From Callorhinchus milii (lineage: Eukaryota): DNA of 64,000 bases. The stretch lies in contig NW_024704743.1 in assembly GCF_018977255.1 (NCBI RefSeq), positions 1 to 64,000 on the forward strand, in the 5' to 3' direction. Position numbers and translations under genes: made by a program. The notes below the pieces were generated by a model. That model was not told the DNA's origin and did no database searches. It worked only from the letters and a program-made list of their open reading frames with translations. Positions 25,569 through 57,084 of this stretch are shown piece after piece. Within the stretch, counting starts at the first letter, position 1. Each line of letters starts with the position of its first letter.

Positions 25569-25822
25569 CTAACATCTCCGCTGGTTTGCGGAGTGCTGCC
25601 CTGCCAGCCGGGCCCCAACATCCTGACGGTCATAGCACCGGGGAGATGAGGTCGCTCCTGTGTGTTCCGGAACTTTCCAGCAGCTGGTCGGCCTGGAGAG
25701 GAAGGGAGTGTTTACGCGCTCAGTGATGTTGGGCAGATTTGCGATGGGGTTCACCGCCCGAAGGCCTGACAGACGAAGGCTGTGAGAGACGTCACTAGTC
25801 GAGGTCTGAGCTCTTTCATCTC
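25569..25822 (-). CDS. Candidate unknown gene, terminal exon E9 ((G)DERAQTSTSDVSHSLRLSGLRAVNPIANLPNITERVNTPFLSRPTSCWK...NQRRC-stop)
   Basis: ggtctgtgcAG acceptor at 25824-25823, 254 nt open to TAG, unique island. Confidence 0.5.
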
Positions 25823-26204
25823 CTGCACAGACCGTAGGGTCAACCAACCCATTGAGCTTCTGCCAGGCCCCCACTCTCTCTCCCTCTCTCCCTCTCCCCC
25901 CATCGTGTCTGTGCTGGTGCTCGCTCCCCCACAGGAGCTCTCTACTCCCTACTCTAACCCCATTCTCCCCTGACCGGACGGGGGGGTGGGGGGTGGGGGG
26001 TGGGGGGGGGGGGGGGGTCGGGTTTAAAGTCTCGTCCAATAGACGGTGCATCAGACAGTTGCATTGCTCGAAGTCAGGCTCCGCTCTGAGAGGCTACTCT
26101 GGGTGGAGGGCGCGATGTAAGTTGTTGTTGTCGTGCCTGTGGTGAGACGGAGGGGGTGGGGGGATTGGGTGGGGCTTAAACCCACGATCGTCGGACTCAT
26201 AAAT

Positions 26205-26860
26205 TCTGTCACCCCAGGCACCAGCATCTCCGGTCGACTTAAGTGACAAGACAACAAATAGTGGAAATGACAGCCCAGAAGGAGGCCATTCGGCCCATCG
26301 TGTCTGCGTCTGTGGCCTTTGACAGAGCCAACCTTTCAGTACCATTGCCCTGCCTTGTCCTCCCTCCCACATCAACCCCCCCCCACCCCCCCCTTTACAC
26401 CTGCCCTCACTCACCTCTCAAACGCCCCTATGTCAGTCGCTGTCTCTCCTCAGATCTCTACCTCGTCCCCTCTTGAAAGCTTAACCCGACTTCTGCGTCG
26501 ACCGCCACTCCCGGCAGCACATTGCGCCTCCTAACCACTCTCCGTGTCAATAAAATCCTCCCGAGACCCTCTTCACGTGCGGTTCTCCGGCCGCTTGTCC
26601 AGCTAGGACCCCCCGCCTCCCCGTTAGTTAGTTAGTTAGTTAGTTGGGGCTTTGGCTGTGGGGTTAACGGGAGCTGAGGGGGAGGATTCCCTGACCCCAG
26701 TGACTGGTCGGCCCCTCCAGGTCCTGCCGATGGATGAGCCGGGGCCGGGCTGGGCGGCCATCAGCCGTGAGTGCCCTGGGACACTGCGGCCCCTCCTGGC
26801 TCAGGAACCGGGGACCAGAGACCGGCACCGAGGGGGAGTGGGGGCTCGATACCCACATTC
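26205..26860. repeat. Third, ~650-bp partial copy of the duplicated segment (direct to 1-453, inverted to 12424-13063)
   Basis: Near-identical sequence; the ORF-track peptides recur (26094..26414- vs 12845..13165+; 26734..27114+ vs 294..575+). Confidence 0.95.
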
Positions 26861-27299
26861 TGCTGCTGAGCCCCGTGAAATCCCCGCTTACCCCCAGCCC
26901 ACCCTCTCCGCCCCCTAAGCCCCCACTACCACCCTCTCTCTCTCCGCGCCACCCCCCCACCCCCACTCCTCCGCTCCCTCACTCTCTCCACCCTACCTCA
27001 CCCCCCCCACCCCCCCACCCCCACCCAAGAGCAGGACATGACCCGTGGCTGAGAGCTGGGAGATGGAGCCTGAGGCGGCTCAATGACTGGAGAAACCTTC
27101 ACCCTCGGCCCTGATAAACAGCGGGGTGGGGGGGGGGGGGGGGGGGGGCCACGTGTTAACCCCGGGGTGACTCCAGCCTCCCGCAGCCCCGGCTCAGTGT
27201 CTGCCTCCCTCCGCTTTTGTTTAATTGGCCGTTCGGTCAAGGCTGCTGTTTATTTTAAGAGTCAGTTTTTTTGTGTGTGTGCGAAACGCAGCCAAGAGA

Positions 27300-28610
27300 G
27301 CGCGCGCGCGCGTGTGTGTGTGTGTGCGTGTGTGTGTGTGCGTGAGAGTGTGTGTGTGTGACAGTGTGTGTGTGTGAGCATATGCGTGGGTGTGGGTGTG
27401 AATGTATGCGTGTGAGCGTGTGTGTGGGTGTGGGTGTGCGAGTGAGCATGTGTGTGAGAGTGTGTGGGTGTGTGTGTGTGAGCACGTGTGTGCGCGTGTG
27501 TGGGTGTGAGTGTACGTACGTGTGTGTGTGGGTGTGTACGCGTGTGAGTGTGTGTGTGTGTGTGTGAGCATGTGTCTGTGCATGTGTGTGTATGTGAGCG
27601 TGTGTGTGTATATGTACGCGTGTGTGTGTGTATATGTACACGTGTGTGTGTGAGAGTGTGAGTGTGTGTGTATATGTACACGTGTGTGTGTGAGAGTGTG
27701 TGTGTGTGTGTACATGTACGCGTGTGTGTGAGAGTGTGTGTGTGTATATGTACGCGCGCGTGTGTGTGAGAGTGTGAGTGTGTGCGTGTGTGTGAGTGTG
27801 TGTGTGTGCGCGTGTGTGCGAGCGCGTGTATCAGGGTGGTCCGTGTATTGGTGCCTCCTGTTTGTCCCTCGTCCCCTCCGCTCCACCATCAGCCACTACC
27901 CCCCGAACCTCTGGCACTCTCTCCCCCAATCCCCCCGCCTCGCCCCCTCCCTTCCTTTTTGATCGTGTTTACGGTCACCTCCCCCCACCCCCTCTCCCCC
28001 CCGGCTCGGGGTCAGACTCCGCCGCTGTCGAGCGCTCCGGGCGCCACCCCACGTGACGGGCGCTATATAAATGCCAGTTGTTGTCGTCGTAGTGTGAATT
28101 GGTCGTAGTCGTCATTGGTTCGGCCGTAGTCAGTGGTAATAATCCCATCCAAAACCAAAAATTGTCTCACACTCTCTCTGTCTCACACTCTCTGTCTCAC
28201 ACTCTGTCTCACACTCTCTCACTCTCACACTCTATCTGTCTCACACTCCACACTCTGTCTCACACTCTCACACTCTCTGTCTCACACTCTCACACTCTCT
28301 GTCTCACGCTCTCTGTCTCACACTCTCTCACTCTCACACTCTATCTGTCTCACACACTCTCTGTCCCACACTCTCTGTCTCACACTCTCTGTCTCACACT
28401 CTCTCACTCTCACACTCTATCTGTCTCACACACTCTCTGTCCCACACTCTCTGTCTCACACTCTCTCTGTCCCACACTCTCTGTGTCTCACGCTATGGAT
28501 CTCACACGCTCTTTGGCTCACACTCTCCGTCTCACACTCTCCATCTCACACTCTCTCTCTCTCTCTCTGTCCCACACACCAATGTGTCTCACACTCTCTC
28601 CGTCTCACAC
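27300..28610. repeat. Complex (GT)n block (27300-27830) and TCTCACACTCTCTG block (28160-28610)
   Basis: Direct inspection. Confidence 0.88.
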
Positions 28611-34600: not shown

Positions 34601-35267
34601 ATGTTGTTGAGGTAAACAGAGGCGTGTGGGTGTGGGTGTGTGTGTGGGTGTGTGCATGTGGGGGGGGGGGGGTGTGTGTGTGGGTGTTGTATGTGTGGGG
34701 GAAGGTGCGTGGGTGTGTAAGTGGGGGGAAGGTGCGTGGTGTGTGTAAGTGTGGGGTGTGTGTGGTGTGTGTGTGTGTGTGTGGTGTGTGTGGTGTGTGT
34801 GTGTATGTGTGGGGGGAGGGTGCGGGTGTGTGTAAGTGTGGGGTGTGTGTGGATGTGTGTGTGTAAGTGTGGGGTGTGTGTGTGTGTGGATGTGTGTGTG
34901 GGTGTGTGTATGTGTGGGGGGGAGGGTGCGTGGGTGTGTGTAAGTGTGAGGTGTGTGTGTGGATGTGTAGAGGTGTGTGTGGGTGTGTGGATGTGGGTGG
35001 ATGTGTAGAGGTGTGTGTGGGTGTGTGGATGTGGGTGGATGTGTAGAGGTGTGTGTGGGTGTGTGGGTGTGTGGATGTGTAGAGGTGTGTGTGGGTGTGT
35101 GTGTGGGTGTGTGTGTGTGTGGGGGTGTGTGTGTGTGCGTGCGGCGTAAGGAAACTGGCCTGAGGTTTCTCCCCCCCCCGGGGAGCAAACCCAGGTCCTC
35201 TCCCTTGCGAGGCGAGCTCCCTAACCACCGAGCCACCGGCGTCCACAAGAGTTTCTGCAGGAGAGGA

Positions 35268-35500
35268 GGGAGTCGTGCCAGAGGACTGGAGAGTGGCCAA
35301 CGCAATACCTATTTATATAAAGGGGGATAGAGCTCATCCAGGAATCTCCAGGAGGGGCCGTTAAATGTCGGATGATATTAGACCCTACATTGAACGATGA
35401 AGTAACCAGTCGTCTTGGGGAAGGAGAATATAATTGGGGGCTATCAGCAGCGATTTGTGAAGCCGAGGTCGGACTTGACCAACGTCATCCAATTCACCTC
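35268..35500 (+). mobile_element. CR1 LINE ORF2 fragment (reverse-transcriptase N-terminal region), degenerate
   Basis: Translates GVVPEDWRVANAIPIYIKGDRAHPGN and IGGYQQRFVKPRSDLTNVIQF, matching the CR1 motifs GxVPxDWRxANVxPxxKKG and QHGFxKxRSCLTNLIxF. Confidence 0.82.
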
Positions 35501-36048
35501 CGGTGCCAAGTGCGAAGAGGTCCCGAGACTTCTATGCCTCAACGATAGACTGCTTCCTCTTCCTGCCCCATGTCCCGCAGCATTACCCCTTCCCTCCCCC
35601 CATTCCTACCTGCCCCCCCTCCGCTCCCTCCGCCCTGCCTCCTCCCCTACACTCCCTCGCCCCCATTTCTCCTTCCTCCTCCCTCCCTCCCACCGTCGCG
35701 GAAAGAGAAGGGAGTTTCTCTCTCTCTCTCTCTCTCGCTTCTCTCTCTCTCTCTCTCCCGGTGTCCCCAAATAAAATCGGTCCCTTCCTCCACGGCCGTG
35801 CGCAATTGCGCTGCCGCCTTTCGCCAACAAAAACCCGCGGTCACTACACTTCCCAGCCTATTCCTGTGAAGCGCTATGAGAGACGCCCGGGGCCTTCGGG
35901 GGACCTTCCTCCCGACGTGTAAAGTCCCTGTGCAGTGTTGCTAATGATAATAATGATAATAATGATAAAGAAATAACGATGATCTTTGCCGCCTTTCCCG
36001 CGGGAGGTGCTTACGGGTCAAGCGTAGTGACTGTGCGTCTTGCGAAAC

Positions 36049-36079
36049 CTGTCACAGACGCGGTGGGAGACTGCCTGTG
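36049..36079 (-). CDS. Candidate unknown gene, mini-exon E8 (HRQSPTASVT+G; phase 0 to 1)
   Basis: Strong acceptor cttcctcttcccctgccAG. The donor CAG|GTTTCG is weak and abuts a SINE tail fragment. Confidence 0.3.
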
Positions 36080-37003
36080 CTGGCAGGGGAAGAGGAAGCG
36101 ATTTGTTGGCGTGGGATATTATGCTTGGAAGAGAGCGTGGAGCTCGGGACTGGCTCACGCTGACTTTGCCCAATGATTCCACGTCCAAACATTTTGAGAG
36201 AGAGTTTTTTTTTCTTTCTATTTGGAGCGAGTCCGGAGATCTTAAATTAGAATTCTTTTTGTTGCCGTTTTTAAGGTGGTTTCTTTTCGGCCCTTTCCCT
36301 CCGCGTCACACCCTGGGGTTAGAGTGTGGCTTGGTGCACGCTCCCCGCCCCACCCACCCACCCACCCACCCCCCTCCGCCCTCTCCCCTCTTCCCCCCAC
36401 TCTCTCTCTCTCTCTCTCTCTACCCCACCTCCCGACATCGTCGAGAGCGAGGCGACAGATGTTTGTGAGGTCGGGGATTCACGGCGTTACGGGGGAGCGA
36501 AGGCAGGTAGTTGGAGTTGAGGTACAGAGCAGCCATCATCTCACGGAATGGCAGGACAGGCTCGAGGGGCTGAATGGCCTCCTCCTGCTTCTGCGATTTT
36601 AAGGCTGAAAAGGTCGCACGGGCTGTGACTGCCTGGAATTCGGGTTCTCCGCAAGCGTTTTCGCAATCCGACCTCCCCTCCAACCCTCCCTCCCTCCCTC
36701 CCTCTCTCCCTCTCTCTCTCCCTCTCTCTCTCTCGCCAGCGTGACTCAAGGCATCGAGTCAAAGCTCCGCTGGTGCGTCGGGGGCCGGGTTTTTTCTGTG
36801 TTAAACTGTTATTGCAGTCCGAAACGTTGCTGGTAAATAATATATTCTGCCTGTGATTTTTTTTTTGTTGTTTTCTCAGCCCTTTCCCCTGTGTTTTCTC
36901 AGCTTGTGAAACTGGAGGAAGCGCATACACTCGTGCCTTCCCCTCTCAGGCATTGTGCAAACTTCCAGCACAGAAACAAGAGTCTTGCACAACCCGATAC
37001 CTT

Positions 37004-37045
<42 letters not shown>

Positions 37046-38072
37046 ACAAACCCTTTAATGCGCTTCCAAATTCCAAAGCGTATTCTCTTTGAAAAATGTT
37101 GCTCTGGGGTTGATTTCCTCGACTCCTTGTTCTCTCTCCTTTCTTTTCCCTTCCGTCGCCAGTCAAACCAACCCCCCCCACCCACCCCCCACCCCACACC
37201 CCCCCCCCCTCGCACACGTGCACACATACACACAACCGGCCCCCCCAGATCCCGCAAAGGAAACTCCTGTCAAGTGTAGTGACCGTCCACTGCTCATGAC
37301 AGCGCAGCGCAGCGCAGCCCGGCTCGTCGGCGGGATTTGGAAGGGCCGACCAGGCGCCGGGGGGGCAAGGAATCTTACCGCTCAGCTTCCGGTTAACCCC
37401 ACAGCCAAAGCCCTAACGGGTAGGGTGGTCCTCGCCGGACCGGCAGCGGGGAAGCTTGGCCAGGCAGAGCTCTTATTGGCAAGCTGTGCGGTTTTAGCTG
37501 GTTAGGCTCCAGCAAAACCCTGCAGCTCGTGTGCTCTCGCGCACCAGGCTCCGTGACACCCATCACTCCCACCCTCGCCCAACTCCGCTGGCCCCCCCAT
37601 CCCCCAGAGGATCGAGTTCAGCGCCTTGGGACGTCCCCCTCCCGACGTGAAAGACGCCCTATAAATGCAATCTTGTTGTTGTTGTTGTTGTTGTTGTTCA
37701 AGATCCTCGTCCTCGCCTTTAAGGCCATCCAATGCCTTGCCCCCTCCTACCTCTCTGACCTGCTGACTCCCGACCAACCTGCCCGCTCCCTCCGCTCATC
37801 AAGCTCAGGACTGCTCCATGTCTCCCGCCCGACCCGTCCTACCATCAGCCTCTCTGCCCCCACACTCTGGAACTCCATCCCACGGTCCCTTCGCCCTCGC
37901 TTCCTCCCTCGCCTCCTCCAAGGCCGGACTCAAGACCCTTCTCTTCTTGCTACATCAAATGCACGGATTAATATTATTATTGGGCGATTAGCACTGAGCG
38001 GGACAGACACTGACCCACTGAGACACCGCACCCCTTGGCCCATTCACCCCGTAGGCTTTGCTTTTTCTAGGG

Positions 38073-38445
38073 GCTCAGCCGGGGTGTCCGACACAGGTGG
38101 AAACCGTTGTTTAAGAGTCTCCAAACCTCAGCTGAGAATTCCCCGACTCCCACCTCCACGTGGAAATCCCAGAGAGAGATGGTTGGAATGGAATGCGCTC
38201 TCTCTCTCTCTCTCTCGCTCCCTGGAGGGACGCCCCTCCCCACCCCCGTTTACCTAATACCAGAGAGTATTAGGCGCAGGTTGGCGAGAGCCAAGGCTTG
38301 GAGGGGGCGCGGGGGGGAGCCCAGAGTGTGCGTTGGGGTAACTGCTGGAGTCCTACCAGCTAAACCCACACACAGCTCGGCCATCGAGAGCGCTGTCCGG
38401 CCAAGCTTTCCCAATGCTTGTCCAGCCGAGGACCACCCTCCCCGC

Positions 38446-38476
<31 letters not shown>

Positions 38477-38540
38477 GGGTTTGGCTTGTAGGGTTAACAG
38501 GAGATGAGGGGGAGGATCCCCTACCCCCCAGTGACTGGTT
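38073..38540. mobile_element. Unclassified interspersed repeat family C. Other copies at about 200-350, 26590-26760, 29580-29942, 37318-37515 (rc), 43793-44115, 44805-45180 (rc), 48195-48480, 52189-52703
   Basis: Recurrent blocks CTCAGCTGAGAATTCCCC, GGAAATCCCAGAGA, GAGAGTATTAGGCGCAGGTTGG, CACAGCTCGGCCATCGAGAGCGCTGTC and GGGTTAACAGGAGCTGAG. Confidence 0.8.
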
Positions 38541-38620
38541 TGCTTGTGAGGAGAGAACATACAGGAGACATCACCTGGTCCAGGTGTTGTCCAGCCAAGT
38601 GAGTTAGTTCAGTGAGTTAC

Positions 38621-38768
38621 CATCGCACGCCACCATCTAGTGGCTCGATGGAGGTACCGCAGCATCTCAACGTACACCGACTGGTCCAACCTTGAGCGCT
38701 CGCTCCGACGATCAGGAATCTGTGCCGTCTCGGACAACGATTCCTGAGCCGGAGACCGTAATATTCCA
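38621..38768 (-). CDS. Candidate unknown gene, exon E7 ((S)GILRSPAQESLSETAQIPDRRSERSRLDQSVYVEMLRYLHRATRWWRAM; phase 2 to 0)
   Basis: ctctctctgctccAG acceptor, ATG|GTAACT donor, 148 nt open in the frame required by E6. Confidence 0.6.
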
Positions 38769-39401
38769 CTGGAGCAGAGAGAGAGAGGCTCGAGAGGGGA
38801 GACCTCAGGCGGGGGGGGGCCCTGACCAGGACGACTCGCACTTACGCAGCGCCCTTCCCTTCAGGCGGGGGCGACTGTCTCGGAAGGCTTACAGGGCGGC
38901 AGAGCCCGACACCGAAGCCGGGGCAAGGAGGGGGAAGGTGACCGTGAGCACGGTTTAAGAGGAAGGTCTTCGGTCGTGATCTAAAAGAGGGGAAGGAGGT
39001 GTGGTGGTGCGGGTTGGTGGGGGGGGGGGGAGACGGGGGTGGGGTGGGGTGGGGAGGGGAAGGCGGAGGGATTAAGGGGCGAGAGTTCCAGAGTTGACAC
39101 ACGGGGACCTCGCACACAACATCAACTACAAGTGACGCCCCCCCCCCCCCACGCACTTTATAGCGAAGGCGCCATAGAAATTTACCGTAAACCTCTCTGA
39201 CTCTACAACAGACAACCGCAGTCCCAAGGGGTTGGGGGGGGGTGGTGGTTGGGGGTGGGGGGGGGGGGGGGTGATGGGGGAACGGGACAGAATGGCAGAT
39301 GTTACGATGTGCGGAGGAGAGGGGAGGGGTGGTGGGGGGGGGGTTGGGTGTTTTAGCAGCAGTTTGCTGACTGAGTCACTGACGAGCCTGCGAGAGGGGG
39401 G

Positions 39402-39436
<35 letters not shown>

Positions 39437-39760
39437 TGGGGACCTATTTAGGTTAACCCAGACAGCACACACGCACATCTGGGCTCCATCCTCTCTCGGT
39501 CCCAGCTCCGTCATACCCTGGGTGGGTGGGTGGGTGGATGGTGGGGGGAGAAGGGGAGAGAGAGAGAGAGAGAGAGAGAGAGACGCCATTGTCAGAGACG
39601 CGTCGCTCCCGGACGAAACCTTAAACCTCGCTGGAGGGTGGGGGGGGGGGGGGGACCCCCCGTCGGCGCTCGCCGGCCGTGGCGCCCTAAAGCCACTGCG
39701 CCGCGCACCCCACGCGTGGCGCGGGCCCGGGCCCGGACTTGGCCGGGTTCCTGGCTGCAC

Positions 39761-39977
39761 CTGCTCTGCGTGTCGGCTGGAACGCCAGGCGCGGCGCGAG
39801 GGGAAGTGTGGGGTGCGAGAGAGGGGCACTTGGCAGTGGGCTGCAGCGTCTCAGCTGGAGCGGGGTTGGGTTTTGGGTCGAAATTGGCTGCTTTTCCCAT
39901 CAGCTGCAGGTCGTCATAGGAACCGCACTCGGTCTTGAGTACCTCATTGGGATTACACTCATCCAGTGGTGAAACAG
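39761..39977 (-). CDS. Candidate unknown gene, exon E6 ((A)VSPLDECNPNEVLKTECGSYDDLQLMGKAANFDPKP...PADTQS; phase 1 to 2)
   Basis: ttcccgacAG acceptor, CAG|GTGCAG donor, 217 nt open with coding-like codon usage. Confidence 0.55.
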
Positions 39978-42334: not shown

Positions 42335-42349
42335 TGCTCGTTCTTCCCT

Positions 42350-43256: not shown

Positions 43257-43289
<33 letters not shown>

Positions 43290-43905
43290 CAGAAGGAGGG
43301 AGACAGAGACAGAAGGGAGCGAGGGAGCAAAAGGGAGTGAGCGAGGGAGGGAGGAGTGGTGGAGTGAGAGAGGGAGGGTGGGAGCTGAGACAAGGGTGTG
43401 AGACTGAGTGACGGGTTGGACTGAGCGTTGAGTCGGCAGTAAACACAGCTGAGAATCAAATGTCAGTGAGAGAGAGAGAGAGAGAGAGAGAGACTGAGAG
43501 AACGAGAGAGACTGAGAAAGAGACCGAGAGAGACTGAGAGACAGGGAGAGAGACCGAGAGAGAGAGAGAGAGAGAGAGACCGAGAGATATTAAGAGGCAC
43601 TGGAAGTGAGCAGTGCAATGAGATTGGACTAGTTGGCTGATGCGGAGACTTGACGATCAAATGATGTGCTGAGAGCATGTAATGTTTTATGGTTCTTTGT
43701 CACCAATGTCTGTGACCCTCAATGCTCCTCCCGGAGTGAGGTAAGCAGGGTCTCCTTGGGGCCAGGGTTGATCCAGGGTGTGTCTTTTTGGCCCAGTCGG
43801 GTGTCTGACACACATGGAAACCCATCACCAAACCTCAGCTGAGAATTCCCCGCCTCCCACCGACACATGGAAATCCCAGAGATAGATGGTTGGAATGGAA
43901 TGCGC

Positions 43906-43936
<31 letters not shown>

Positions 43937-45325
43937 TTCTCTCCCTGGAGGGACGCCCCCACTGCTTACCTAATTCCGGAGAGTATTAGGCGCAGGTTGG
44001 CTCTCCCGCCGCTTGTCCAGCCTAGGACCACCCTCCCCGTTGGTTAGGGCTTTGGCTGCGGGGTTAACGGGAGCTGAGGAGGGACGACTCCCCGCCGATG
44101 AGCCGGGCCGAGCTGCGCAGTGCCCTGGAGTACTGCAGACCTGCCCCCCCCGCGCCCCCCCCCCCTTACAAAAAAGGAAAGGAACAAAAAAATAAAATCC
44201 CCCCCCCCCTAAGCATTCTTGATACGTCAGCCGAGGGTTAAGAAATATCTGGCTCACCGCAGAGCTGTCCAACGACTGTTATTCTATATCCCCAAAGGGA
44301 GAAAACACGCAAAGAATAGGGGTTTCATGTTAACAGCATCTGACACGCTAACAAAGCACGGATGGAAAGGTCCAACACACGTGTGCGGAATTCTAATCCA
44401 GCGACTTGCTTAGAATATTCTTTCTTTGTCTGCCACCCCCCCCCCCATCCCCCCACTTCCCTCTCCCCCTCTCTACGCCTGTCCCTTCCTACTTCTGCGA
44501 CCTGCTAAGGCCCACATCAACCTGTCCGCTCCCTCTAATCACTGTGCCCCAACCTTCAGCCTCTCTACCCCCGTCCTTTGGACCTCCATCCCACAATCCC
44601 TTCGCCTCGCCCTCTCCCTTGCCTCAGTCACCCTCCTACCTCCCCACCCTCCAACACCCCCCACCCCCGATCCCAACCCCCAAGTCCCTGACTGTCCAGC
44701 GCCTTGGGTCGTCCCCCCCGCCGTGAAAGGCGCCGTGTTGATATAACTTGTTGTTGCCCAGACCGCCACCCTGCTATTGCTTATCTCCTTGGCCCAATTC
44801 AGTGACTGGCTCATCGGCAGGACCTGGAAGGGCAGACCAGTCAATTGGGGCAAGGACTTCTCCCACTCAGCTCCTGTTAACCCTGCAAAGCCTTAATGGG
44901 TAAGGGGGGGGGAGGTCCTAGCTGGACAAGCAGCGGGAAAGCTCTCTCGATAGCAATATCAATGGCAAGCGACGTGTGCTTTTAGATGGTTAGACTCCAG
45001 CAGTTACCCCAATGCACACTCTGGGGTCCCCAAGTCTTGGCTCTGGCCAATCTGTGCCTAATACTTTCTGGAATTAGGTAAGCGGGGGGGGGGGGGGGGG
45101 GGGCGTCCCTCCAGGGAGAGTGCGAGAGAGATAGAGAGAGAGAGAGAGAGCGAGGGAGGGAGGGAGTGCATTCCACTCCAATAAATGTGGTACTCTCTGT
45201 CTGTTTTGGATGCTCTTAAACATGGTGATGGTTTGCCACATGTGACAGACTCACGGCTTAACTTAGGTTATGATAATATTAATAATATCTGGGGGGGATT
45301 GTCGGCCAGGACAGTACCCCGGGCG

Positions 45326-45367
<42 letters not shown>

Positions 45368-45515
45368 TCCATTCTCTTTTCGACCAGGCAACACCCCCCC
45401 CCAACACCGCTGTATTGGAACGTCAGCTTAGACCGTGCGATTCCAAGTCCCGACATGCGGGGGCTTGAACCCACAACCTTCTGACTCAGAGGCGAGCGAG
45501 AGAGAGAGAGAACGA

Positions 45516-45563
<48 letters not shown>

Positions 45564-45689
45564 TCTAGCAACTGAACCGGGCTGGAAGGTCTTCTGTGCT
45601 GTAACGTTCCCTGGTTCTCCGAGCCAGTCGGAGTTTCTCAGTATCGGGTTATCAAGTCCCATTTCCATGAGGTCATCTCAGAGTCTCAC

Positions 45690-45762
45690 CTTTTCCAACC
45701 CACAAGGAGATGAACTTCCTTATGACCAAATTCCTTCGAGCCGCGACCATCTGTGCTGCCTC
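45690..45762 (-). CDS. Candidate unknown gene, exon E5 (EAAQMVAARRNLVIRKFISLWVGK+G; phase 0 to 1)
   Basis: ctctctctcAG acceptor, AAG|GTGAGA donor, 73 nt. Confidence 0.62.
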
Positions 45763-46063
45763 CTGAGAGAGAGCGAGAGAGCGAGAGAGAGAGAGAGAGA
45801 GAGAGTGAGAGAGCGAGAGGGAGAGAGAATATCCTTCCTGTAATGAGGTAATAGGTCTGTGTGCACTCACGAGCCAGAAACACGTCACTCGGGGCCTTAA
45901 ACACAATCCGCCAGCCCTTATAAATAAATCCGCGCCGCTTAACGTACGCGGCTACTACATTTGCGTCTCCGTTTCGATGTCAAACCGATTTGCGGACGGT
46001 TCACAAGCCCCGTAGCTCAGCGGTTAGAGCGCTCGCCTGACGGGGGAGAGGACCTGGGTCCTC

Positions 46064-46097
<34 letters not shown>

Positions 46098-46199
46098 CAG
46101 AGAGCCGCATTGTCAGAGACGCCGTCCTTCGGGTGTGAGATGTTAAACTTCACTCCCACGTTGTCGGTGGGAGGTAAAGAGAAGAGAGTTTCTCCCTCT

Positions 46200-46230
<31 letters not shown>

Positions 46231-46868
46231 GCTCTCTCTCTCTCTCCACCCCCAGCGCTGCGCTGGACAGTCAACCTGGACCGTGAGCTCAGAATCCCCG
46301 ACGTGGGGTTTGAACCCATGACCCACTGACTCAGAGGTGAGAGAGTGAGTGAGTGACTGAGCCAGGCTGACGTTATGGGCTGCGCACATAACAAGGCTTA
46401 TTATTTACCGTCTAGACACACTCTCGGCCACCCTGCCTGTCTGCTGCGTGAGTAAGCGAGAGGGTTCGAGTCCCGGGCAGAACGAAACATTGGGCAAGTT
46501 TCCTCACTCCAACACGCCTCTGTTTACCCAGCAGTAAGTAGGAAACCTGGTTGCCAGTCGTTTGGCGGGATGGCTTTTTCTGGGGAGGGGCGGGGGGGGG
46601 GGGGCGGGTAACGATCCCTTTCGAAAAAAAATAAGAACGCGATCACTCAATCCACGACTCGATCCGAAGGCGCGGTGGAAGAGGAGGGTCTTGGGGCGGG
46701 AGGGAGGGAGGGAGGGAGGGAGGGCGAAGGGACTGTGGGATGGAGATCCAAAGGATGGTGGGGTGGGGTGGTATGGGGGGGCAGAGTGGCTGAAGGTCTG
46801 ACCGACGATGATGGCGGGGAGGACCGGGCGGGAGACGTGGAGCTTGCCGGAGGGAAGGAGCGGACAGC

Positions 46869-46905
<37 letters not shown>

Positions 46906-47776
46906 TCCCTTCTGTTTTGCAACGGTCCCGCGGGATCTTTAACCTCCAGCTCAACTGGGTCTCGGATTAACGTCTAAAGTTGGGACAGGACCATTAATGG
47001 GAGAGGTTCACCACCAGACAATAAGGAAATGGCGGACAAACTAAATAAATACTCGGCCTCAGATAACACAAAGGAAACTGATAAGGTTTGCTCGGAGAGG
47101 GGGGGGGTGGGGGGGGGGGGGCGTAAAAGCGTTTTACAAACAGGACGGTTAGGAACAGGGAGAAGGGGAGGTGTCCGATAAATCCCACGAAGTTACAGGA
47201 CAGGGCGCCCAGCCCAGATGGATTGCTCCCAAGGAAGCTGAGGCTCCCAAGGCGCTGGACGGTCTGGGGATTGGGATTGGGATCAGGAGGGGTGGAGGGG
47301 AGGGAGGTAGTGGGTAGGGGGGTGACTGACGGCGAGGTCGAAGAGGAGGGACTTGAGACGTGCCTTGAAGGAGGCAGTGGAGGGGTGGGGGGGAAGGGGA
47401 AACGAGGCGAAGAGACTGTGGAATGGAGTTCCAAAGGGTGGGGGCAGAGAGGCTGAAGGTCCGACCACTGAAGACGTCTCGAAGACAGGATAAGGCGCTA
47501 ACATCAAATGGTTATTATTCTGTCTGGGGGAAAGTGGGGGTGGGGGGGTGAAGGGGGGAGGCAGTGGTTGGCAGAGTGAGACTGTTGACCAGGGGAGGGG
47601 GAAGGATTGGAAATGCAAGGATTATTATTATTATTATTATTATTATTACACCTGTTTACTCTGAGCAAAGTAGCTGTCAGATTCTCGCCCCGCCCCGCCC
47701 CGCCCCGGGAGTCAAACCCAGGTCCCCTCGCTCGCGCTCTAACCATTAAGCTACAGGACTCCACCGTGAAGCGGAC

Positions 47777-47887
47777 CTTATCGTCTTTCTTTAACCGTCC
47801 CTGCGAAAGGGGCCGTTTCTGCTGCGCGGGTCCGTCTGGCGAAGGGTTAACGCCGAGGCCCCCCGGCGACTGCGACTCGTCCGTGGG
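47777..47887 (-). CDS. Candidate unknown gene, exon E4 (PTDESQSPGGLGVNPSPDGPAQQKRPLSQGRLKKDDK; phase 0 to 0)
   Basis: ttcccacgttgcAG acceptor, AAG|GTCCGC donor, 111 nt open, unique island between SINE pieces. Confidence 0.55.
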
Positions 47888-48320
47888 CTGCAACGTGGGA
47901 ACACACCTCGATCCCCGGACGCTGCCCCGAAACAGCCGCACGCCCGTAGCCCCGTCTAATGGCACCTTCCCTTGTTACCGAGCCTCGCATTTGATACACC
48001 GCCTTATCACGTCTTCCAGACGTCCCTCAAAGCGCTTCACGGGAAACTCTGTAAAGTGTCGTGGCTTTGGCGAGCGAAGCGCGGCAGCCGTTTGACCACT
48101 GAGCTACTGCCCCGTGTTATAGCGGCGAATTCAACTGAGAAGACAGCAGCGGCGGCGGCGGCGGCAACAACAATTTGCACTTTTTTTTTTCCTGCCCAGA
48201 GCCGGGTGTCCGACACGGGCGGAAGCCCATCACCGTCGCTCGAGAGTCTCCAAACCTCAGCGGAGAATTCCCCGCCCTCCCACCTCCACGTGGAGATCCC
48301 AGAGATAGATGGCTGGAATG

Positions 48321-48354
<34 letters not shown>

Positions 48355-49169
48355 CCCCTGGAGGGAGGTATCCTGGTTACTTAATTCCAGAGAGTATCAG
48401 GCGCAAGGTGTTAGCAAGAGCCAAGGCTTGGGGAGGGGGTGGGACGGGGTGACTGCTGGAGCCTAACCAGCTGAACCCACATAGAATATAGAGAGGCGAA
48501 CACGCGAGAACAGTTGAGTGTGAGAGCGCTCGAAAGAGAGAGCGAGAGAGAGAAAGAAAGAGAGACAGACAGAGAGAGAGAGAGAGAGAGAGAAGGGAGC
48601 CCTCTGCAGGAATTGAGAGTGCGCTAACAATCCCTGTAGGACATCACAAGCCCATCATCGAAAGCTTTTCTCGAGCGCTTTCCTATAAAGCCTAACGACT
48701 GTGTGTTTTGTGGGCGAAACTTGGCTGTCCCTCTGCGCCCAGCGACGTCCCCGCAAACAGCCGTGAAAATAAACGTCGCGTTTTTTAATCTGTCGGCCGG
48801 GACACCGGGAAAGAGAGCGCGCGCGAGCGAGCGAGAGCGAGAGCGAGAGAGAGAGAGACTCCCTTCTCTTTCCCAATAGCATCACGGGATCTTCACCTGA
48901 ACTGAAGGGTGGAACCTCCAACAATGTAGTGCGCTCTCTCCTTCTCTCTCTCTCTCTCTCTCTCTGTCTCTCCCCCTCTCTCTCCTTCTCTTCCCCCAGT
49001 GGGGCTCGAACCCACAACCTCCCGAGCCTCCTGAGACACCCGTCGACAGAACGGAAATAGGCCACGCGGCTCACGGGAGCTCTCAACTCTCAACTCTAAC
49101 CCCACTTCCCCACGGAGTCTGTGCTGGTGCTCGCTCCACCACTGGAACCCTCCGCTCTAACCCCGTTCC

Positions 49170-49201
<32 letters not shown>

Positions 49202-49431
49202 CCCCCCAGTGGTGCCTGTGCTGGTGGGGGTGTAATTGAACCCACAACCTGTGACTCAGGGACGAGGGTGTGAGCCAAGCTGATCCGCCCGCTTCTCTGG
49301 CTTTGACATCGGTGTAAACACTGCCACCCCACTGTCCGGCCGGCCTCCATTACGCAATGCATTGTGCCGTGAGCTCGAAGACCACCCCCCACCCAACGAG
49401 TCACAAAAGACCACTGCCTGAGCCCACTCAC

Positions 49432-49545
49432 ATCCGTCGGGAATTGCTCAAACCCTCCGTCATCACAGTCTCTCAATGAGCCCTTCACATAGTTTGGCTC
49501 TTCTGCGCGCGAGTGGCTGAAAGACATCATTGATTCATCGACCGT
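49432..49545 (-). CDS. Candidate unknown gene, exon E3 (TVDESMMSFSHSRAEEPNYVKGSLRDCDDGGFEQFPTD; phase 0 to 0)
   Basis: gtctgtccAG acceptor, GAT|GTGAGT donor, 114 nt open, in a unique island. Confidence 0.6.
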
Positions 49546-52500
49546 CTGGACAGACGCAGCACAAATTCTGATTGAGTTACGTGATACTGAGTGTTGGGGG
49601 GTGAGGGGGGAGGGGGGGGGAAGAAAAGAGGAGGAGTGGGGTGGGGGGGAAATGGGGGAATTTGGGTTTTTACACTGCTACCCCTCGTTCTATCCGAGAA
49701 AGAGAGAAACATTCATCCTCGTGTTTGAATCGGGTGTTCGAGACTTCTCAAAACCTTTCGGCCATACAGAGTCATACACAGTCAACTCACTTTTTACAGT
49801 GTATCCTGTGAAGCGCTGTGAGACGTCTCGAAGACGTGATAAGGCGCTGTATCGCTCGCAAGGATTACTATTACATTCCAAAGCACTGCGCCCAGAATAT
49901 ACTGTAAAGTATAGAGTAAAGAGAAGGTGGTTTCTCTCTCCCAGACAATAACCACTCCACCGCCCCCTTCCCCGCACCCATCGATAAAACCAGTCGCTCA
50001 CTTCGCGGTTGTTTCCGATCACGACTGAAGACCTTTCCTCTTCGAACGTGCTTACGGTCACCTGCTCCCTCTCCCCACCTCGCAAGCCGGAGGACCCGGG
50101 TTCGATTCCCGGGCGGGGCGAAACCTTAGGCACGTTTCCTTACTCCGCACACCTCTGTTTAACCCAGCGGTCAGTAGGAACCCGGCTGTTGGTCGATTGG
50201 CGATCCCTTCCAAAAAAAAAAATGCGGTCACTCAATCCGCAACTGTCTGTGGGACACTGCTCCCAAAACACACAGTCACTACACTTTGCTGTATGTTCTT
50301 GAGACGTCTCGACGATGTGAGAAGGAGCTTTTTTCAAAGGCAAGGATTATTATTGTTATTCGGGACACCTTCACGATGTGATGAGGCGCTACATCCAATC
50401 GTAATAATCCTTGCGTTTGAGATATCTTCGAGACGTCTCAAAGCGCTTCACAGAATATACTGCAAAGTGTAATGACTGTGTATGTTGGGGGCTAAACGGG
50501 GCGGACCACTGCGCACAGCAGTGACCCACGAACAGTCGTGGATTGAGTGACCAAGCTACTGTAATTTTAATTTTACTTTCGAAGGAGTTATTACCCCCGG
50601 AAAAGCTTAACGGTGGGAGGGGGTGACTGCCGGGTCGAAGAGGAAGGTCTTCAGGGGGCGACCTGAAGATGGGGAAGGAGGAGGGAGGAGTGGGGGGCGA
50701 GGGGGGTGGGGGGGGGGGGGGGGGGGCGACGAGAGTCGAATCGAACCCGAATCCTCTCGCCTGCCCAGACGAGGACGGACGAGCGATGAAGAGGTTAACG
50801 TGGCGGGTGAGGAATGCGAGAGCGCGAGCGGGCGAGAGAGAGCGAGAGAGAGAGGGCGAGAGAGAGAGAGAGCGAGCGAGGAGGAAGAGCAAAGTCCATG
50901 ACTCACGGGGTTGTGAGTCGAGTCTGGAAAATTCCGTCACATTTCATCTTTCTTCCGATGACTCAGTAGAAAATCCCAGCAAAACACGCCGGGGGTGAAG
51001 GTCGCGCTCGCTGACACCCGGCCCAGCGTGAGGGAACGTGGGAGAGAGGAGAGCTGCGAATAAACAACTGGAACTTTTTCGAAGTCTATAAAACTCCCTC
51101 CGCGCTGCCGCTCCCAACAGCAACTTACTCCCCCCCCCACCCCACCCCACCCCGCCCCACCGCCCGCCCCACCATCGCCCCGGCCCTCCGCGCCATCGGC
51201 GGTCGAGCCCTCAGAGAGACCTCTCTGCCACCCCGCCCTTTGGAAGTCCATCCCGTAGTTCACTTCGCCTCCCTCCCTCCATTCGAGGCACGTCTCACAA
51301 CCCTCCTCTTCAACCGCGCTTTCGGACACCCTCCTTACCCCCACAACCCCCCCCCCCCCACCCCACACTCCCTGCCCGCCATCCCCTCCTGATCCCCACA
51401 ACCAGTCCGGGTCCAAATCCCTGAAGGGTGGCACCCTCAACAATGCAGTGCTCTCTCTGCCCCCCCGCTCTCTCTCTCTCCCCACCCCCCCAACCCCCGG
51501 ATTGTGAGCTCAGATGTGGGGCTCGAACCCCAACCTCCCGAGCCTTCCGAGATACCTGTCGACAGAACGGAAATAGGCCACACAGCTCACGGGAGCTCTG
51601 TACTCTACCCTGTTCTCTCTCCCCATCGTGTCTGTGCTGGTGCTCGTTCCCCCATCGGGGCTCTCCACTCTAACCCCAGGTCCAGCAGACCGAGTATGAC
51701 TGGCCTCAGGAGGAATAATAGGTGACAACCACAACAACTTGCATTTACACAGCACCCTTCATACTGGCTGGTGCCTCAGAGCGCTTAACAGTGGCAACGC
51801 CTGATACCGAGCCGGGGGGTGGGGGGGGGGGGGAACCGTGAGCACGGTCGAAGAGGAAGGTCCTCAGGCGCGATCTAAAAGAGGGGAAGGAGGCGGGCGG
51901 GGCGGAGGGATCGAGGAAGAGAGTTTCGGGGCGTAGTGGCTGAAAGCACAACCGCCAACGGTGGAGCGGAGGGAACGAGGGACAAACCGCACGAGGAGGC
52001 GGTGAGAGCGGCCGTGTGGGGGAGTAAGGAGGTCGGAGAGGTACGGGAGGCACCAGGGACTTGTAGACGAGTGTGAGAATCTTGAAGTTGATGGAAATGG
52101 GCGGTGGGGCGGGTGGTGGGGGGGGGGGTTTGCAGGGGGGAGCGGAGAGGAAGTGGTCTATAAAGGGGAAATATGGGCCTCCAAAATAGAAAAACATGCG
52201 TGAGGCCAGACTGGGGAAACCTGACCGGTTTAGCTTTCCCCTACGTTAGACTCTGAGGATCACTCGCCTGTCTAACAGCACCTCCGATAGTCACCACCGT
52301 CGTTATTGGGGTTTGTTTTTTTTTTGCTCAGCTGAGTGTCTGACACACGCGGAAACCCATCGCCGTTGCTTAAGAGTCTCCAAACCAAGCCGAGAATTCC
52401 ACGCCTTCCCCCCACCCCCCCCCCGACCCCCACCACCCCCCCCCCGCGTGGAAATTCCAGAGCTAGGAATGCGCACTCTCTCTCCTGCTCACCTAATTCC

Positions 52501-54296
52501 GGAGAGTATTAGGCGCAGGTTGGCAAGAGACGAGGCTTGAGGGGGAGCCCAGAGTGTGCGTTGGGGGTAACTGCTGGAGTCCAACCAGCCAAACCCACGC
52601 ACAGCTCGGCCATCGAGAGCGCTGTCTGGCCAAGCTTTCCCGCCGCTTGTCCACTAGGACCCCCCCTCCCCGTTGGGGCATTGGCTTGTAGGGCTAACAG
52701 GGACGCTTCCTTCAAAAAAAATAATAATAATTTGGTCACTCACTCCACGAATACTTGTGGGCTCACTGCTGTGCGCAATTGGCTGCCACGTTCCGCCCCC
52801 AAAACACGCAGTCACTGCCCTCGACAGTAGATCCCGTGGAGCGCTTTGAGACGTCTCGAAGACTTGATGAGGCGCTGCAACATTGTTAGTGTTATTATCA
52901 GAGAGAGAGAGATATGTGGGAATAGAGAATGGAGTTTCAGTGGTTCTCTCGTGTTTGGTATTATTTTTCTTCTCCACACGCCTCCATTCCCTCCCCTCCC
53001 CTCCCTGGTCACGTCAGGACACGTCTTGTTTTTCTACTTAACCAGAAAAGCTCAAGAGCCCGGTAACACCTTGTAACTCGCCTCCGAAACCTGCTAATGA
53101 TATTAACTCTACTCGTATAATCTTCCTTCCTGCTCAATCTCCTGCGCTCCTACTCTTTCTCTCTCTCTGGGCCTCTCCCCCCCCCCTCCCTCCCCTCACC
53201 CTTCCTGCTCCGCACCAGGCTCCGTGATCCCTATCACCCCACCCTCGTCATCGCCTTCAAAGCCCCTCCACGGCCTTGCTCCTCGCTACCTCTGTGACCT
53301 GCTAAGACCATATCGACCTGTCCGCTCCCTCTACTCAGTGGGCTCCAGCCTACTCCACATCCCCCGACCAGCCCCACCACCATCAGCAGTCGGACCTTCA
53401 GCCTCTCTGCCCAAACCTTTTGGAACTCCATCCCACCTCTTCGCCTCACCCTCCTCCGTCTCAAGACCCTCCTCTTCGACCATGCCTTCTCTCCCCTACC
53501 CTCCCTGCCCTCCAACCCTTCGGATCCCAACCCCCAGCTCGGGTCCAAATCCCTGACTGTCCAGCGCATTGGGACGTCCTCCCGATGGGAAAGGTAAACG
53601 TCATGTGTTGTTGCTGCTCCCAAGTTGTCCACCTCACGATTGGTGGGTGAGGTTTCCCTCTCTGACACACGCGCCCCAAATCCCTCCAAACTCGCTCCCT
53701 CTCTTCAAATCCCACCCGAGAACGTACCTCGTTGATGGTGCCTTCAGTCCCCCACCCCCTCTCCCAGCTCAGGATACCATTCCGTCTCTATCAAGAGCTT
53801 TGCGGTGTTTAATAAAAATAACACCTTGCAAATCGATTCTGCGTCTTATCGGTTGAAACCTCTCGAAGCACCTCACGGGCAGTTGAGTGTAGTTTGACTT
53901 TCTGACGACAATAGTTCTCGCATTTGACACAGCGCCTCATCACGTCTTCGAGACGTCTCAAAAGAGCTTCGCGGGATATGCCGTGAAGTGAATCGACTGT
54001 GTATTTTGTCCCGCACTGAGTGAGTGAATGAGCGATTTTATTTGGGGAGGGGGTGGGGGGGCAATTGTTGCCCGGGACACTGGGAGAGAGAGAAAAACTC
54101 GCTTCTCTTTTTGAGTAGTGCGATGGGATCTTTAACGTCCCGAACAGGCAGACCTGGGTCTAACATCTCATCCAAAGGACTGACAACACAACACAAACAC
54201 CAACTACACTGGAGCATCAGCCCAGACTACATAAGATCAGCGTAGGGGCTCAAACCTGACTTGGAAACAAGAGTGTTACCAACTGAGCCTGGCTGA

Positions 54297-54693
54297 TAAT
54301 AAATAATACTAATCCCTGCATTCGATATAGCGCCTTATCCCGTCTTCGAGACGTCTCAAAAGTTCTTCACAGGACACGCGGTAAAGCGGAGTGACAGTGT
54401 GTTTTGTGGGCGAAAACGCGGCAGCCAATTGAGCGCAGTAGCGTCCCCACAAGCAACCGTGGGTTGAGTGACCAAATTATTTACTTGGATGGGATTATTA
54501 CCCCCCCCCCCCACCCCGGCAAAGCAATCCATCAATCAACTAACAACCGGGTTCCGACTTGCTTCCAGGTAAACAGAGGTTTGTGGAGGCAGGAAACTTG
54601 CCGAAGGTTTCGCCCCGTCCCGCCCGGGATATCGAACGCGGGTCCTCTCGCTTGCGAGGCGAGCGTTCTCACCACTACGCTTCCGAGACTCCA
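54297..54693 (-). mobile_element. Full-length family-A tRNA-SINE
   Basis: Same head/body/tail order as 30852-31228. Confidence 0.88.
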
Positions 54694-56126
54694 CGAATGG
54701 ACCCGTCTGTGGTTTCGGGATAGACCCGTGAGTTCAGTGCGAGTGCCTCGGTAGGGGAGCCGGGCCGGGCCGAGCGGCTGTACTGTAATTCCTCGCGCGG
54801 GAAAAACAACAAGTGGAGGGATAGACGCAACAGGAAAAATGAGCGAGTTTGGAAGCCGCCGACTGCCTGGCGCACAGCTGCTGCCGTGCCGTGCCGTGCC
54901 GGGCCGGGCCAGGGGAGGGTAAGCAGCTCGACCACGGGTTGCGAGAGGAACAGGCGGTCTCACTGAAGTCACCGCAAATTGGACTCGAAACGGGAAGCCA
55001 GACATTGCCCCCCGTGGCTTTAACCGTAACCTCAGCCTCTGGTACCGCAGCCGAGAGGCTCACTCCGAGCGAGGGACGGAGGGAGCGAGGGAGGGAGGGA
55101 GGGAGGGAGAGCAAGTGTGTTTTTGTTTTGTTCCATGGAAAAACATATTTTCTCAAAAGACAGGCAAACCCAGTGATACGCAGACAGACAGAGACAGACA
55201 GACACACACACACAGTCTCACGCGCACAGAGTTGGCATTTGTCAAATCAGATTCTTGGTACAACTAAAATACGTTGTGATTTATGATTTTACCCCCAAGC
55301 GTCTCCGGTACCAATAGCAATCCTTGCCCCCCCCCACCCCCCCACCCCCGGTTTGTCGACCGCTTGCGTTTACGTCGCTGAGAGATTAGAATAATAAGCC
55401 TCGCGTTGAATATAGCGCTTTATCGCATCGTCCACCCGTCTCAAAGCGCCTCACTGGCACGTACTGTAAAACGTAGTGACTGTGTATTTTTAAGGGCGCA
55501 ACACGGCTGCCAATATCACTATTGTTCGGTCAGGATGTCAGTGGAAACAGGACAGGTAATTGGAGTTGAGGTACAGATCAGCCGTGATCTAATAGATCGG
55601 CGGGAACCGGCTCGAGGGGCTGAATGTCCTCCTCCTGTTTCGATGTTTCTACTTGCAGCTGCGACCCCAAAAACAGCAGTCGATTGAGTGACCAATTTTT
55701 TTCTTTATGGGTTGGGGGGGAAGAGGGGAATTATTACCCCCGGAAAGCGATCTGCCAGTTGACTAACAACCCACTTACTGCTCGGTAAAGAGACGTGCGC
55801 GCGTGCGCGTGTGCGCGGGCGGAGTAAGGAAACTTGCCCCAGGTTCCGCCGTACCCGGTGATCGAACCCTGAGTCCTCTGACTCGCGCGGCGAGCGCTCT
55901 GACCACGAGGCTACGGGACTCCGCGCTGACGGCCCGACGTGAAAGGCGTTGCATCAATTTCGTGCGAGAAATGAAACGGGAAGTGACCGAAACAGAGCAG
56001 CGAGCGGAGTTTAATGTAAAACCGTAGTGTAACGAGACAAGCATATCAGCGGGCCGGTCGTTAACCCCCCGGGGGAAAAAAACAGCCATTAAAGACCCCC
56101 AAATGTCACATAACATAACCCCCCAC

Positions 56127-56199
56127 CCCAACAATATCAGCAAGCAATTGCTGTGGATAATTGTGTAGCGACTCTGTATTTTGGAGGCAAACGCGACAG
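56127..56199 (-). CDS. Candidate unknown gene, exon E2 ((S)CRVCLQNTESLHNYPQQLLADIVG; phase 2 to 0)
   Basis: CCCTAAC branch-point-like motif followed by the first downstream AG at 56201-56200; donor GGG|GTGGGG. The pyrimidine tract is weak; phases bridge E1 and E3. Confidence 0.35.
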
Positions 56200-57004
56200 C
56201 TATTTTATGTATTGACATGAATGAGTAATTCGTTAGGGAAAGGGGTGGAGTTGGGGGGGGAAAATGGGGCGAATTGGTGACCAGGATACCGGGAGAGAGA
56301 AAACTCCCTTCTCTTTTCCCGACAGCACCTCAGGAGGTCTTTAACGTCCACCTGAACAGGGCACGGAGTGGGGGGTGAGGGATGGGGGGTGGGTGGGGAG
56401 TGAGGTTTAACGTCTCGTCTGAAGGAAGGGAACTCCAACCTCAATCTCCTGACTCAAAGGAAGGGACGCGAGTGATCGGACCGATGGGGCTGACAATTTT
56501 ATCAGATTGGCCCCCGGAAAGCGATCCGCCAATCGCCGAACGACCGGCTTCCTACCTACTGCTCGGGCGGGTCAGGAAACCTGCCCGAGGTTTCGCCCTG
56601 ACCCGCCCGGGGATGGAACCGCTCGCTAACCACCGCGCAACGGGACTCCAAATGCGCGAAACATTTGATTTGACACCCTATCGCCCCACCACCCGCCCTC
56701 GCCCGGCTCCACTGACCACCCCGTCCCCCCCCCCCGTCCCCCCAGAGGATAGAGTTCAAAATCCACGTCCTTCGAAAGTAACGTGACGGCGGGTGGGGGG
56801 GCGATAACCGTTGGGAGGTTAAACCGGCTGAAGCCGCACAGCTTGCCATCGAGTCACGCCAGCCACGGCCACTCTAACCGTTAAGGGGGTTTGGTTGACA
56901 AACAGTCAACACGATCGCCACGCGGCAGCCGGGCACGTAAGTGTCCCTGCACGCCCAGCACTGGCCACTGGGAGGCGCTCTGTCCTCATCAACCGGAGCC
57001 TCAC

Positions 57005-57084
57005 CTCCACTCGTGTGGGCGAAAGGCCAGTTGGAAGCGCTGGAAGCGCTGGCCTCCCCCGACCCAGTTATTGCACAATTCCAT
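57005..57084 (-). CDS. Candidate unknown gene, exon E1 (ATG; MELCNNWVGGGQRFQRFQLAFRPHEW + 2 nt)
   Basis: ctaATGG start context and strong donor GAG|GTGAGG (57004-57003). An in-frame pyrimidine-rich acceptor lies upstream at 57135-57134. Unique sequence. Confidence 0.45.

What the first reader, a model, noticed from the sequence alone, without database searches (positions are those of the whole stretch)
25569..57084. Unrecognised nine-exon, ~366-aa gene hidden between wnt9a and snap47
Seen: short unique islands among repeats carry minus-strand AG/GT-bounded open frames that chain in phase: 57084-57005, 56199-56127, 49545-49432, 47887-47777, 45762-45690, 39977-39761, 38768-38621, 36079-36049 and 25822-25569 (1101 nt including stop). 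E3-E7 have good splice sites and protein-like peptides. The ORF track cannot show this as a gene. I recognise no domain. In mammals this interval holds PRSS38, but nothing here resembles a serine protease. Caveat: exons and frames were chosen by hand, and E2 and E8 are weak.
Basis: partly seen in the sequence, partly recalled or inferred. Interest (0 to 1): 0.75.

Follow-up and report, generated by a model that had tools for sequence, protein, structure and literature searches.

The report
Doubtful hidden gene in elephant shark
Nine short stretches between two known elephant-shark genes do join into one open reading frame, but two of them lean on decayed repeat DNA and no protein relative or spliced transcript turned up, so the nine-part gene is likely a chance fit; a five-part middle section remains a roughly 30% candidate for a real, unannotated gene.

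Summary
The window is Callorhinchus milii: a snap47 exon is 100% identical to V9KYU1_CALMI. The nine pieces exist, have AG/GT ends and chain into 1101 nt without an internal stop.

The ends of the model fail. E2 has a very poor acceptor and overlaps a decayed SINE, E8's donor lies at a SINE edge, and E9 uses its fourth-best acceptor.

The core E3-E7 is borderline. A blind splice-plus-codon chain finder recovers it on the minus strand at P 0.01-0.06, but splice signals alone give P 0.45. Its codon bias is well below that of snap47 and wnt9a.

No homologue was found for E3, E6 or E7. A matched snap47 control found the C. milii protein and 16 others, and RefSeq- and UniProt-labelled C. milii entries are held. 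No protease motif and no Pfam family were found. The one RNA test was swamped by repeats and is uninformative.

Verdict: the nine-exon, 366-aa gene as drawn is about 5% likely; a 218-241-aa gene built on the core about 30%.

The parts
57005..57084 (-). E1, proposed ATG exon; strong donor (9.3 bits, phase 2); 1.6 kb downstream of the snap47 stop. Uncertain.
56127..56199 (-). E2, rejected: acceptor -4.6 bits, first half overlaps a decayed SINE body, codon score -0.10 bits/codon
49432..49545 (-). E3, core candidate exon (acceptor 5.5, donor 8.0). In-frame ATG ATG at 49530/49527. An alternative acceptor at 49516 (4.6 bits) is in phase with the E1 donor and would make E2 unnecessary.
47777..47887 (-). 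E4, core candidate (acceptor 6.9, donor 3.3). A better in-frame donor at 47744 lies inside a tRNA-derived SINE head.
45690..45762 (-). E5, best splice-site pair of 124 non-overlapping candidates on both strands (21.9 bits); its pyrimidine tract is a (CT)n microsatellite; basic amphipathic peptide
39761..39977 (-). E6, core candidate; weak acceptor (0.8 bits), Pro/Ala-rich; nearly fills its unique island (39737-39987)
38621..38768 (-). E7, second-best splice pair (17.1 bits) but no codon signal (0.00 bits/codon). Reading through its donor stops at TGA 38611-38609; ATTAAA at 37059.
36049..36079 (-). E8, rejected as drawn: donor 0.5 bits at the edge of a decayed SINE body
25569..25822 (-). E9, unsupported: fourth-best acceptor in its island, flat codon signal (-0.01 bits/codon), next poly(A) hexamer at 21508 in a repeat
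58727..63326 (-). snap47 coding exons (flanking gene, used as positive control)
10481..10967 (+). wnt9a last coding exon, intact copy (Wnt Pfam E 2.5e-46); faces snap47 tail to tail
1..3230 (-). inverted 98.6% copy of 9634-12879, carrying a second wnt9a last exon with a 1-nt deletion

Best explanation
The nine pieces are real sequence that chains in frame, but the chain is likely a chance fit in non-coding DNA between the facing 3' ends of wnt9a and snap47, not a protein-coding gene. How the fit arises: (shown) about 60-70% of the DNA is repeats, leaving about a hundred short islands; (shown) only 3.4% of island triplets are stops, so open frames of 25-80 codons are common; (shown) a (CT)n microsatellite supplies the pyrimidine tract at the best acceptor, and SINE remnants supply E2 and the E8 donor; (shown) most islands offer several AG and GT sites, so phases can be matched by choice. 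(Inferred) the islands themselves are likely regulatory or neutrally decayed DNA downstream of wnt9a.
For: With splice and phase terms alone the best minus-strand chain equals the shuffle mean (37.2 vs 37.2, P 0.45, 608 shuffles). Strong splice sites and strong coding scores fall on different exons: E5 and E7 splice 21.9 and 17.1 bits but code 0.08 and 0.00 bits/codon; E4 and E6 code 0.22 and 0.14 with splice 10.1 and 4.4. That is the pattern expected from picking by the sum. Core synonymous-codon score is -0.19 against 0.26-0.35 for 6 of 7 neighbouring exons (the seventh is the frameshifted wnt9a copy); GC3 is 0.63 against 0.73-0.89. E2 and E8 are SINE-linked. No relative was found for E7 (0 of 4 candidates), E3 (0 candidates) or E6 (1 spurious bacterial repeat protein among 1.84 billion). 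A 48-aa snap47 exon found the C. milii protein at 100% and 16 others, and RefSeq- and UniProt-labelled C. milii SNAP47 entries are in the collection. That genome's annotation used polyA RNA of ten tissues including testis and ovary (PMC3964593, passages).
Against: GC is lowest at codon position 2 in 5 of 5 core exons (16 of 3000 null sets). E5 and E7 rank first and second of 124 candidates. The homologue searches need shared 5-residue words and would miss a fast-evolving shark orthologue. One control gene does not prove that the whole C. milii proteome is held.
Confidence: 0.5

Rival explanations
1. E3-E7 are the coding exons of a real, fast-evolving, tissue-restricted gene missed by annotation. 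It would start at the ATG in E3 (218-219 aa) or at E1 spliced to the 49516 acceptor (241 aa), and end by reading through the E7 donor to TGA 38609, with ATTAAA at 37059. The product would be intracellular and mostly disordered, and would likely act as a scaffold through two basic amphipathic helices (E5, E7), possibly binding calmodulin- or centrin-type EF-hand proteins in germ cells or cilia. Every functional step is inferred.
For: Blind recovery of the five exons at P 0.01-0.06; codon periodicity P about 0.005; E3, E5 and E7 use the best local sites; model lengths; hydrophobic moment 0.92 in E7 and a loose IQ-like spacing in E5; same strand as snap47.
Against: No homologue or same-species protein; no Pfam, Atlas or PDB support; weak codon bias; E6 acceptor 0.8 bits; strict IQ and Sfi1 patterns absent.
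Confidence: 0.3
2. Some pieces (E5, E7, perhaps E3) are true exons of a spliced long non-coding RNA or of a decaying pseudogene, and the rest of the chain is chance.
For: E5 and E7 have splice scores equal to real exons but no codon signal. The core codon score lies between background and real genes (P 0.056). A decayed intron-containing gene was reported elsewhere in this genome (scan note e1-7811856, not checked here).
Against: An unbroken frame over five exons is not needed by a lncRNA and is not expected after long decay; no parent gene was identified.
Confidence: 0.15
3. The core exons are an alternative 3' end or read-through of snap47: the donor at 61198 (phase 0) would join E3 (phase 0) and replace the last SNARE-type exon.
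For: Same strand and compatible phase.
Against: Both C. milii SNAP47 records end with the exon at 58873-58727. None of the 18 fetched SNAP47-type proteins matches a candidate exon. Phase agreement has a 1-in-3 chance.
Confidence: 0.05

Closest known systems
PRSS38 (mammalian trypsin-family protease between SNAP47 and WNT9A; position and strand recalled, three papers naming both genes seen only as a search listing)
   Same: Same syntenic slot and, by recall, the same strand as SNAP47.
   Different: No trypsin motif set in six frames, no Trypsin Pfam hit in 197 island peptides, no signal-peptide-like start.
IQ-motif and Sfi1-repeat proteins (EF-hand-binding helices; Sfi1 consensus AX7LLX3F/LX2WK/R from PMC2173958, passages; IQ consensus recalled)
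   Same: E5 and E7 peptides are short, basic, amphipathic and contain Trp; E5 fits a loose hydrophobic-R-R-hydrophobic spacing.
   Different: Neither the strict IQ nor the Sfi1 consensus is met in 5 of 5 core exons; no Pfam hit at E<=1.
tRNA-derived SINEs and microsatellites of the C. milii genome
   Same: E2, the E8 donor and the longer E4 donor lie in such remnants; three SINE heads score as tRNA in Rfam.
   Different: E1, E3, E4, E7 and E9 show no repeat-HMM hit inside; E5 and E6 only weak 21-nt edge overlaps (E 0.014 and 0.19).

Membership tests
protein-coding gene (nine-exon model) | canonical AG/GT ends and one open frame | tested here: met
protein-coding gene (nine-exon model) | all exons have credible splice sites outside repeats | tested here: not met
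   E2 acceptor -4.6 bits and SINE overlap; E8 donor 0.5 bits at a SINE edge; E9 fourth-best acceptor
protein-coding gene (core E3-E7) | exon chain above chance | tested here: inconclusive
   P 0.012-0.061 with codon term, P 0.45 splice-only
protein-coding gene (core E3-E7) | codon bias like neighbouring genes | tested here: not met
   -0.19 vs 0.26-0.35; GC3 0.63 vs 0.73-0.89; periodicity is present
protein-coding gene (core E3-E7) | spliced transcript | tested here: inconclusive
   repeats swamped the tables; tissues unknown
protein-coding gene (core E3-E7) | frame-preserving conservation in related genomes | not testable with these tools
   no animal genomes are held (genome search is prokaryotic); protein searches negative but insensitive
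PRSS38 / trypsin family S1 | His-Asp-Ser motifs and trypsin domain | tested here: not met
IQ-motif proteins | [FILV]Qxxx[RK]Gxxx[RK] (recalled) | tested here: not met
   only a loose spacing in E5
Sfi1-repeat proteins | repeated AX7LLX3F/LX2WK/R (PMC2173958) | tested here: not met

The most novel reading that the evidence does not exclude
An intact orphan gene of five or six exons (E3-E7, with or without E1), missed by the public protein sets, occupies the slot that PRSS38 fills in mammals. It encodes a 218-241-aa disordered scaffold with two basic helices that dock EF-hand proteins in germ cells or cilia: a fast-evolving gene in a genome known for slow protein evolution.
Probability: 0.3. Interest if true: 0.45.

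Novelty: not a real feature. Interest (0 to 1): 0.2.

Why it matters
If the best reading holds, this is a cautionary case: in GC-rich, SINE- and microsatellite-dense chimaera DNA, in-phase AG/GT chains arise easily. If the core gene is real, it adds a taxon-restricted gene to an ancient wnt3a-wnt9a-snap47 block and shows that the elephant-shark catalogue misses fast-evolving genes. That would be useful to specialists but is not a new kind of system.

Tried and rejected
RNA. The run search listed no RNA holder; 8 of 12 rows were guessed-RNA runs with 0.01-0.04 of the words. I laid 4 of these 8 on 36030-56029 at 90% likeness. SINE transcripts swamped every table: 15 of 2074 joints were shown, none at a predicted junction, and the 32 pieces shown were at most 106 nt and all in repeats. 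No piece the size of E3, E4, E6 or E7 was listed. Tissues are unknown, contigs drop rare forms and most rows were hidden, so this is not counted for or against. A stricter likeness or a shorter stretch would have been the better use of the single call. E1, E2 and E9 lay outside the stretch.

Protein searches. Pfam: 0 of 8 exon peptides (E8 too short). 197 of 373 six-frame island peptides were scanned (the longer ones from 25-58.7 kb) and gave 2 sub-threshold hits (Nramp E 0.03, EGF_LRP2 E 0.044); controls found Wnt and GRAM but missed the 48-aa snap47 exon. ESM Atlas: no usable hit for E6 or E7. PDB: only a designed helical protein at E 0.2 for E7, none for E5. Metagenome scan with E7: 0 of 591 stretches confirmed. 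P0001 was rejected as a bacterial repeat protein. The joined peptide was not searched, and E1, E2, E4, E5, E8 and E9 were not searched in the large protein sets, so a relative seen only with the full length stays possible.

Other. Rfam: only 3 tRNA-like SINE heads. A plus-strand gene was rejected (chain scores 2-33, at null level). The idea that E9 lies in wnt9a intron 1 was dropped: no wnt9a first exon was found at 8.9-64 kb on the minus strand and the intact last exon is on plus.

Literature. Searches snap47+wnt9a (9 papers; listing, plus passages of PMC7892373), Callorhinchus milii+snap47 (1, listing), wnt9a+wnt3a+synteny+snap47 (0), jmjd4+snap47+synteny (0), wnt9a+elephant shark+synteny (3; passages of PMC3296468 and PMC6158797, wnt9a in references only), prss38+wnt9a (3, listing) showed no description of a gene here. 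No supplements were read; those of PMC3964593 could bear on annotation.
Full report
Identity of the locus. The last snap47 coding exon (58873-58730, minus) matches Callorhinchus milii SNAP47 V9KYU1 at 100% over 48 aa, and tBLASTn maps the whole 432-aa protein to 63296-58730. The wnt9a last exon scores Wnt Pfam E 2.5e-46 at 10482-10964 on plus. The finding therefore lies in the roughly 47-kb gap between the facing 3' ends of snap47 and the intact wnt9a last exon. By recall, human SNAP47 and WNT9A are also tail to tail with PRSS38 between them. No whole genome is held for this window.

Observation. The nine intervals have AG/GT ends, chain in phase and give 1101 nt, 366 aa and one terminal stop. 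Repeats cover 61% of the window by self-BLAST and TRF and 71% of 13.1-57.6 kb after adding repeat HMMs. At higher sensitivity E2 matches SINE bodies (HMM built without nearby copies, E 0.031) and E8's donor sits where a SINE body begins (E 3.4e-5). With recalled vertebrate splice matrices, E2's acceptor scores -4.6 bits, E6's 0.8 and E8's donor 0.5, against 1.8-13.3 for seven real acceptors and 6.2-12.0 for five real donors in the window. E9 uses the fourth-best acceptor of its island, and no poly(A) hexamer follows until 21508, in a repeat. The ends of the model are not credible.

The core. Of 59 minus and 65 plus non-overlapping candidate exons, E5 and E7 rank first and second overall; E3 is sixth and E4 twentieth on minus; E6 is outside the top 22. 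I wrote a blind chain finder (splice plus codon score, phase-compatible) and shuffled each unique island by dinucleotides. An earlier amino-acid-only version gave 3 of 60 and 1 of 60. With heavier masking P was 0.012-0.016 without an intron limit and 0.031-0.061 with introns up to 8 kb, but 0.45-0.65 with splice terms alone (608 shuffles). Real exons scored 6-32 each in the same model against 0.5-10.9 for the core. Synonymous-codon usage is unlike the neighbours: -0.19 against 0.26-0.35, null -0.35 +/- 0.10, P 0.056; the training set included the frameshifted wnt9a copy. Strong splice sites and strong coding scores fall on different exons. The core is a borderline signal in an interval that was flagged because it looked gene-like.

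Homology. E7 (49 aa) found no hit among 4 candidates, E3 (40 aa) no candidate, and E6 only a bacterial repeat protein among 1.84 billion representatives. The matched control, a 48-aa snap47 exon in the same mode, found 17 proteins among 46 candidates including the C. milii one, whose cluster holds UniProt and RefSeq-derived records. So E3 and E7 are probably not annotated in these frames in public C. milii protein sets, although the genome paper used polyA RNA from ten tissues including testis and ovary (PMC3964593, passages). The control hits were 58-70% identical, so a shark orthologue below about 55% would likely be missed. Pfam, Atlas, PDB, Rfam and metagenome searches added nothing. The RNA lay was uninformative (see Tried and rejected).

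How it most likely works. Most likely (0.5) the chain is a chance fit. Stops are 3.4% of island triplets, microsatellites give pyrimidine tracts, SINEs give extra sites, and islands offer several AG and GT choices. The islands would be regulatory or decayed DNA downstream of wnt9a; that function is inferred, not tested. The main rival (0.3) is a real five- or six-exon gene: start at ATG 49530/49527 in E3, or E1 joined to the in-phase acceptor at 49516, and stop at TGA 38611-38609 by read-through of the E7 donor, giving 218-241 aa. Its product would be intracellular and largely disordered, with basic amphipathic helices in E5 and E7 as likely binding sites. Strict IQ and Sfi1 patterns are absent (Sfi1 consensus from PMC2173958, passages), so EF-hand binding is a guess. 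Lesser rivals are lncRNA or pseudogene exons (0.15) and a snap47 3' extension (0.05).

Comparison and novelty. It is not PRSS38 or any trypsin-family gene, and it is not an IQ or Sfi1 family member. Six literature searches on the locus showed no description of a gene here, and the scan has no note near this place or on look-alike DNA. As drawn, the nine-exon gene is about 5% likely, so I class it as not a real feature, with a 30% chance of an orphan gene built on the core.

Caveat on the assembly. The window has a one-base shortfall in a snap47 exon relative to the database protein and a one-base deletion in the second wnt9a copy. Indel errors could therefore also hide or break true exons in this interval.

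Noticed in passing
window 1-3230 and 9634-12879: Inverted duplication at 98.6% (4 mismatches, 19 gap openings), each copy holding the wnt9a last exon; the minus copy has a 1-nt deletion that shifts the frame. wnt9a exons 2 (8844-8585) and 3 (7107-6842) lie on minus in the spacer, opposite to the intact plus copy, and no first exon was found. Probably a fold-back or haplotig join in the assembly; a real inverted duplication is not excluded.
   Followed up: partly
window 62123-62096: The snap47 exon is one base short of the database protein and changes frame here, next to a short GA-rich tandem duplication; likely an assembly indel.
   Followed up: partly
window 12424-13063 and 26205-26860 (also 1-453): An element of about 660 nt in inverted copies at 92.7% on both sides of the interval.
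   Followed up: no
window 35246-35668: Largest unique island in the gap; by eye it has a TATA-like box followed by a pyrimidine-rich stretch on minus, resembling a solo LTR remnant (recalled resemblance).
   Followed up: no
window 50881-51129: Unique island with two TGAGTCA (AP-1-type) sites, a TATA-like word and a GTGAGT donor-like site on minus; either an enhancer or a non-coding first exon upstream of E3.
   Followed up: no
window 31900-31360 and 30670-30380: Locally duplicated block (a unique stretch of about 90 nt, then a CACT array and a SINE body), seen by eye.
   Followed up: no
window 18320-19145: 60-nt minisatellite, 13.9 copies at 90% match.
   Followed up: no
window 59637-59582: A strong acceptor after a 900-nt (CT)-rich array inside the last snap47 intron, not used by either database SNAP47 record.
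   Followed up: no
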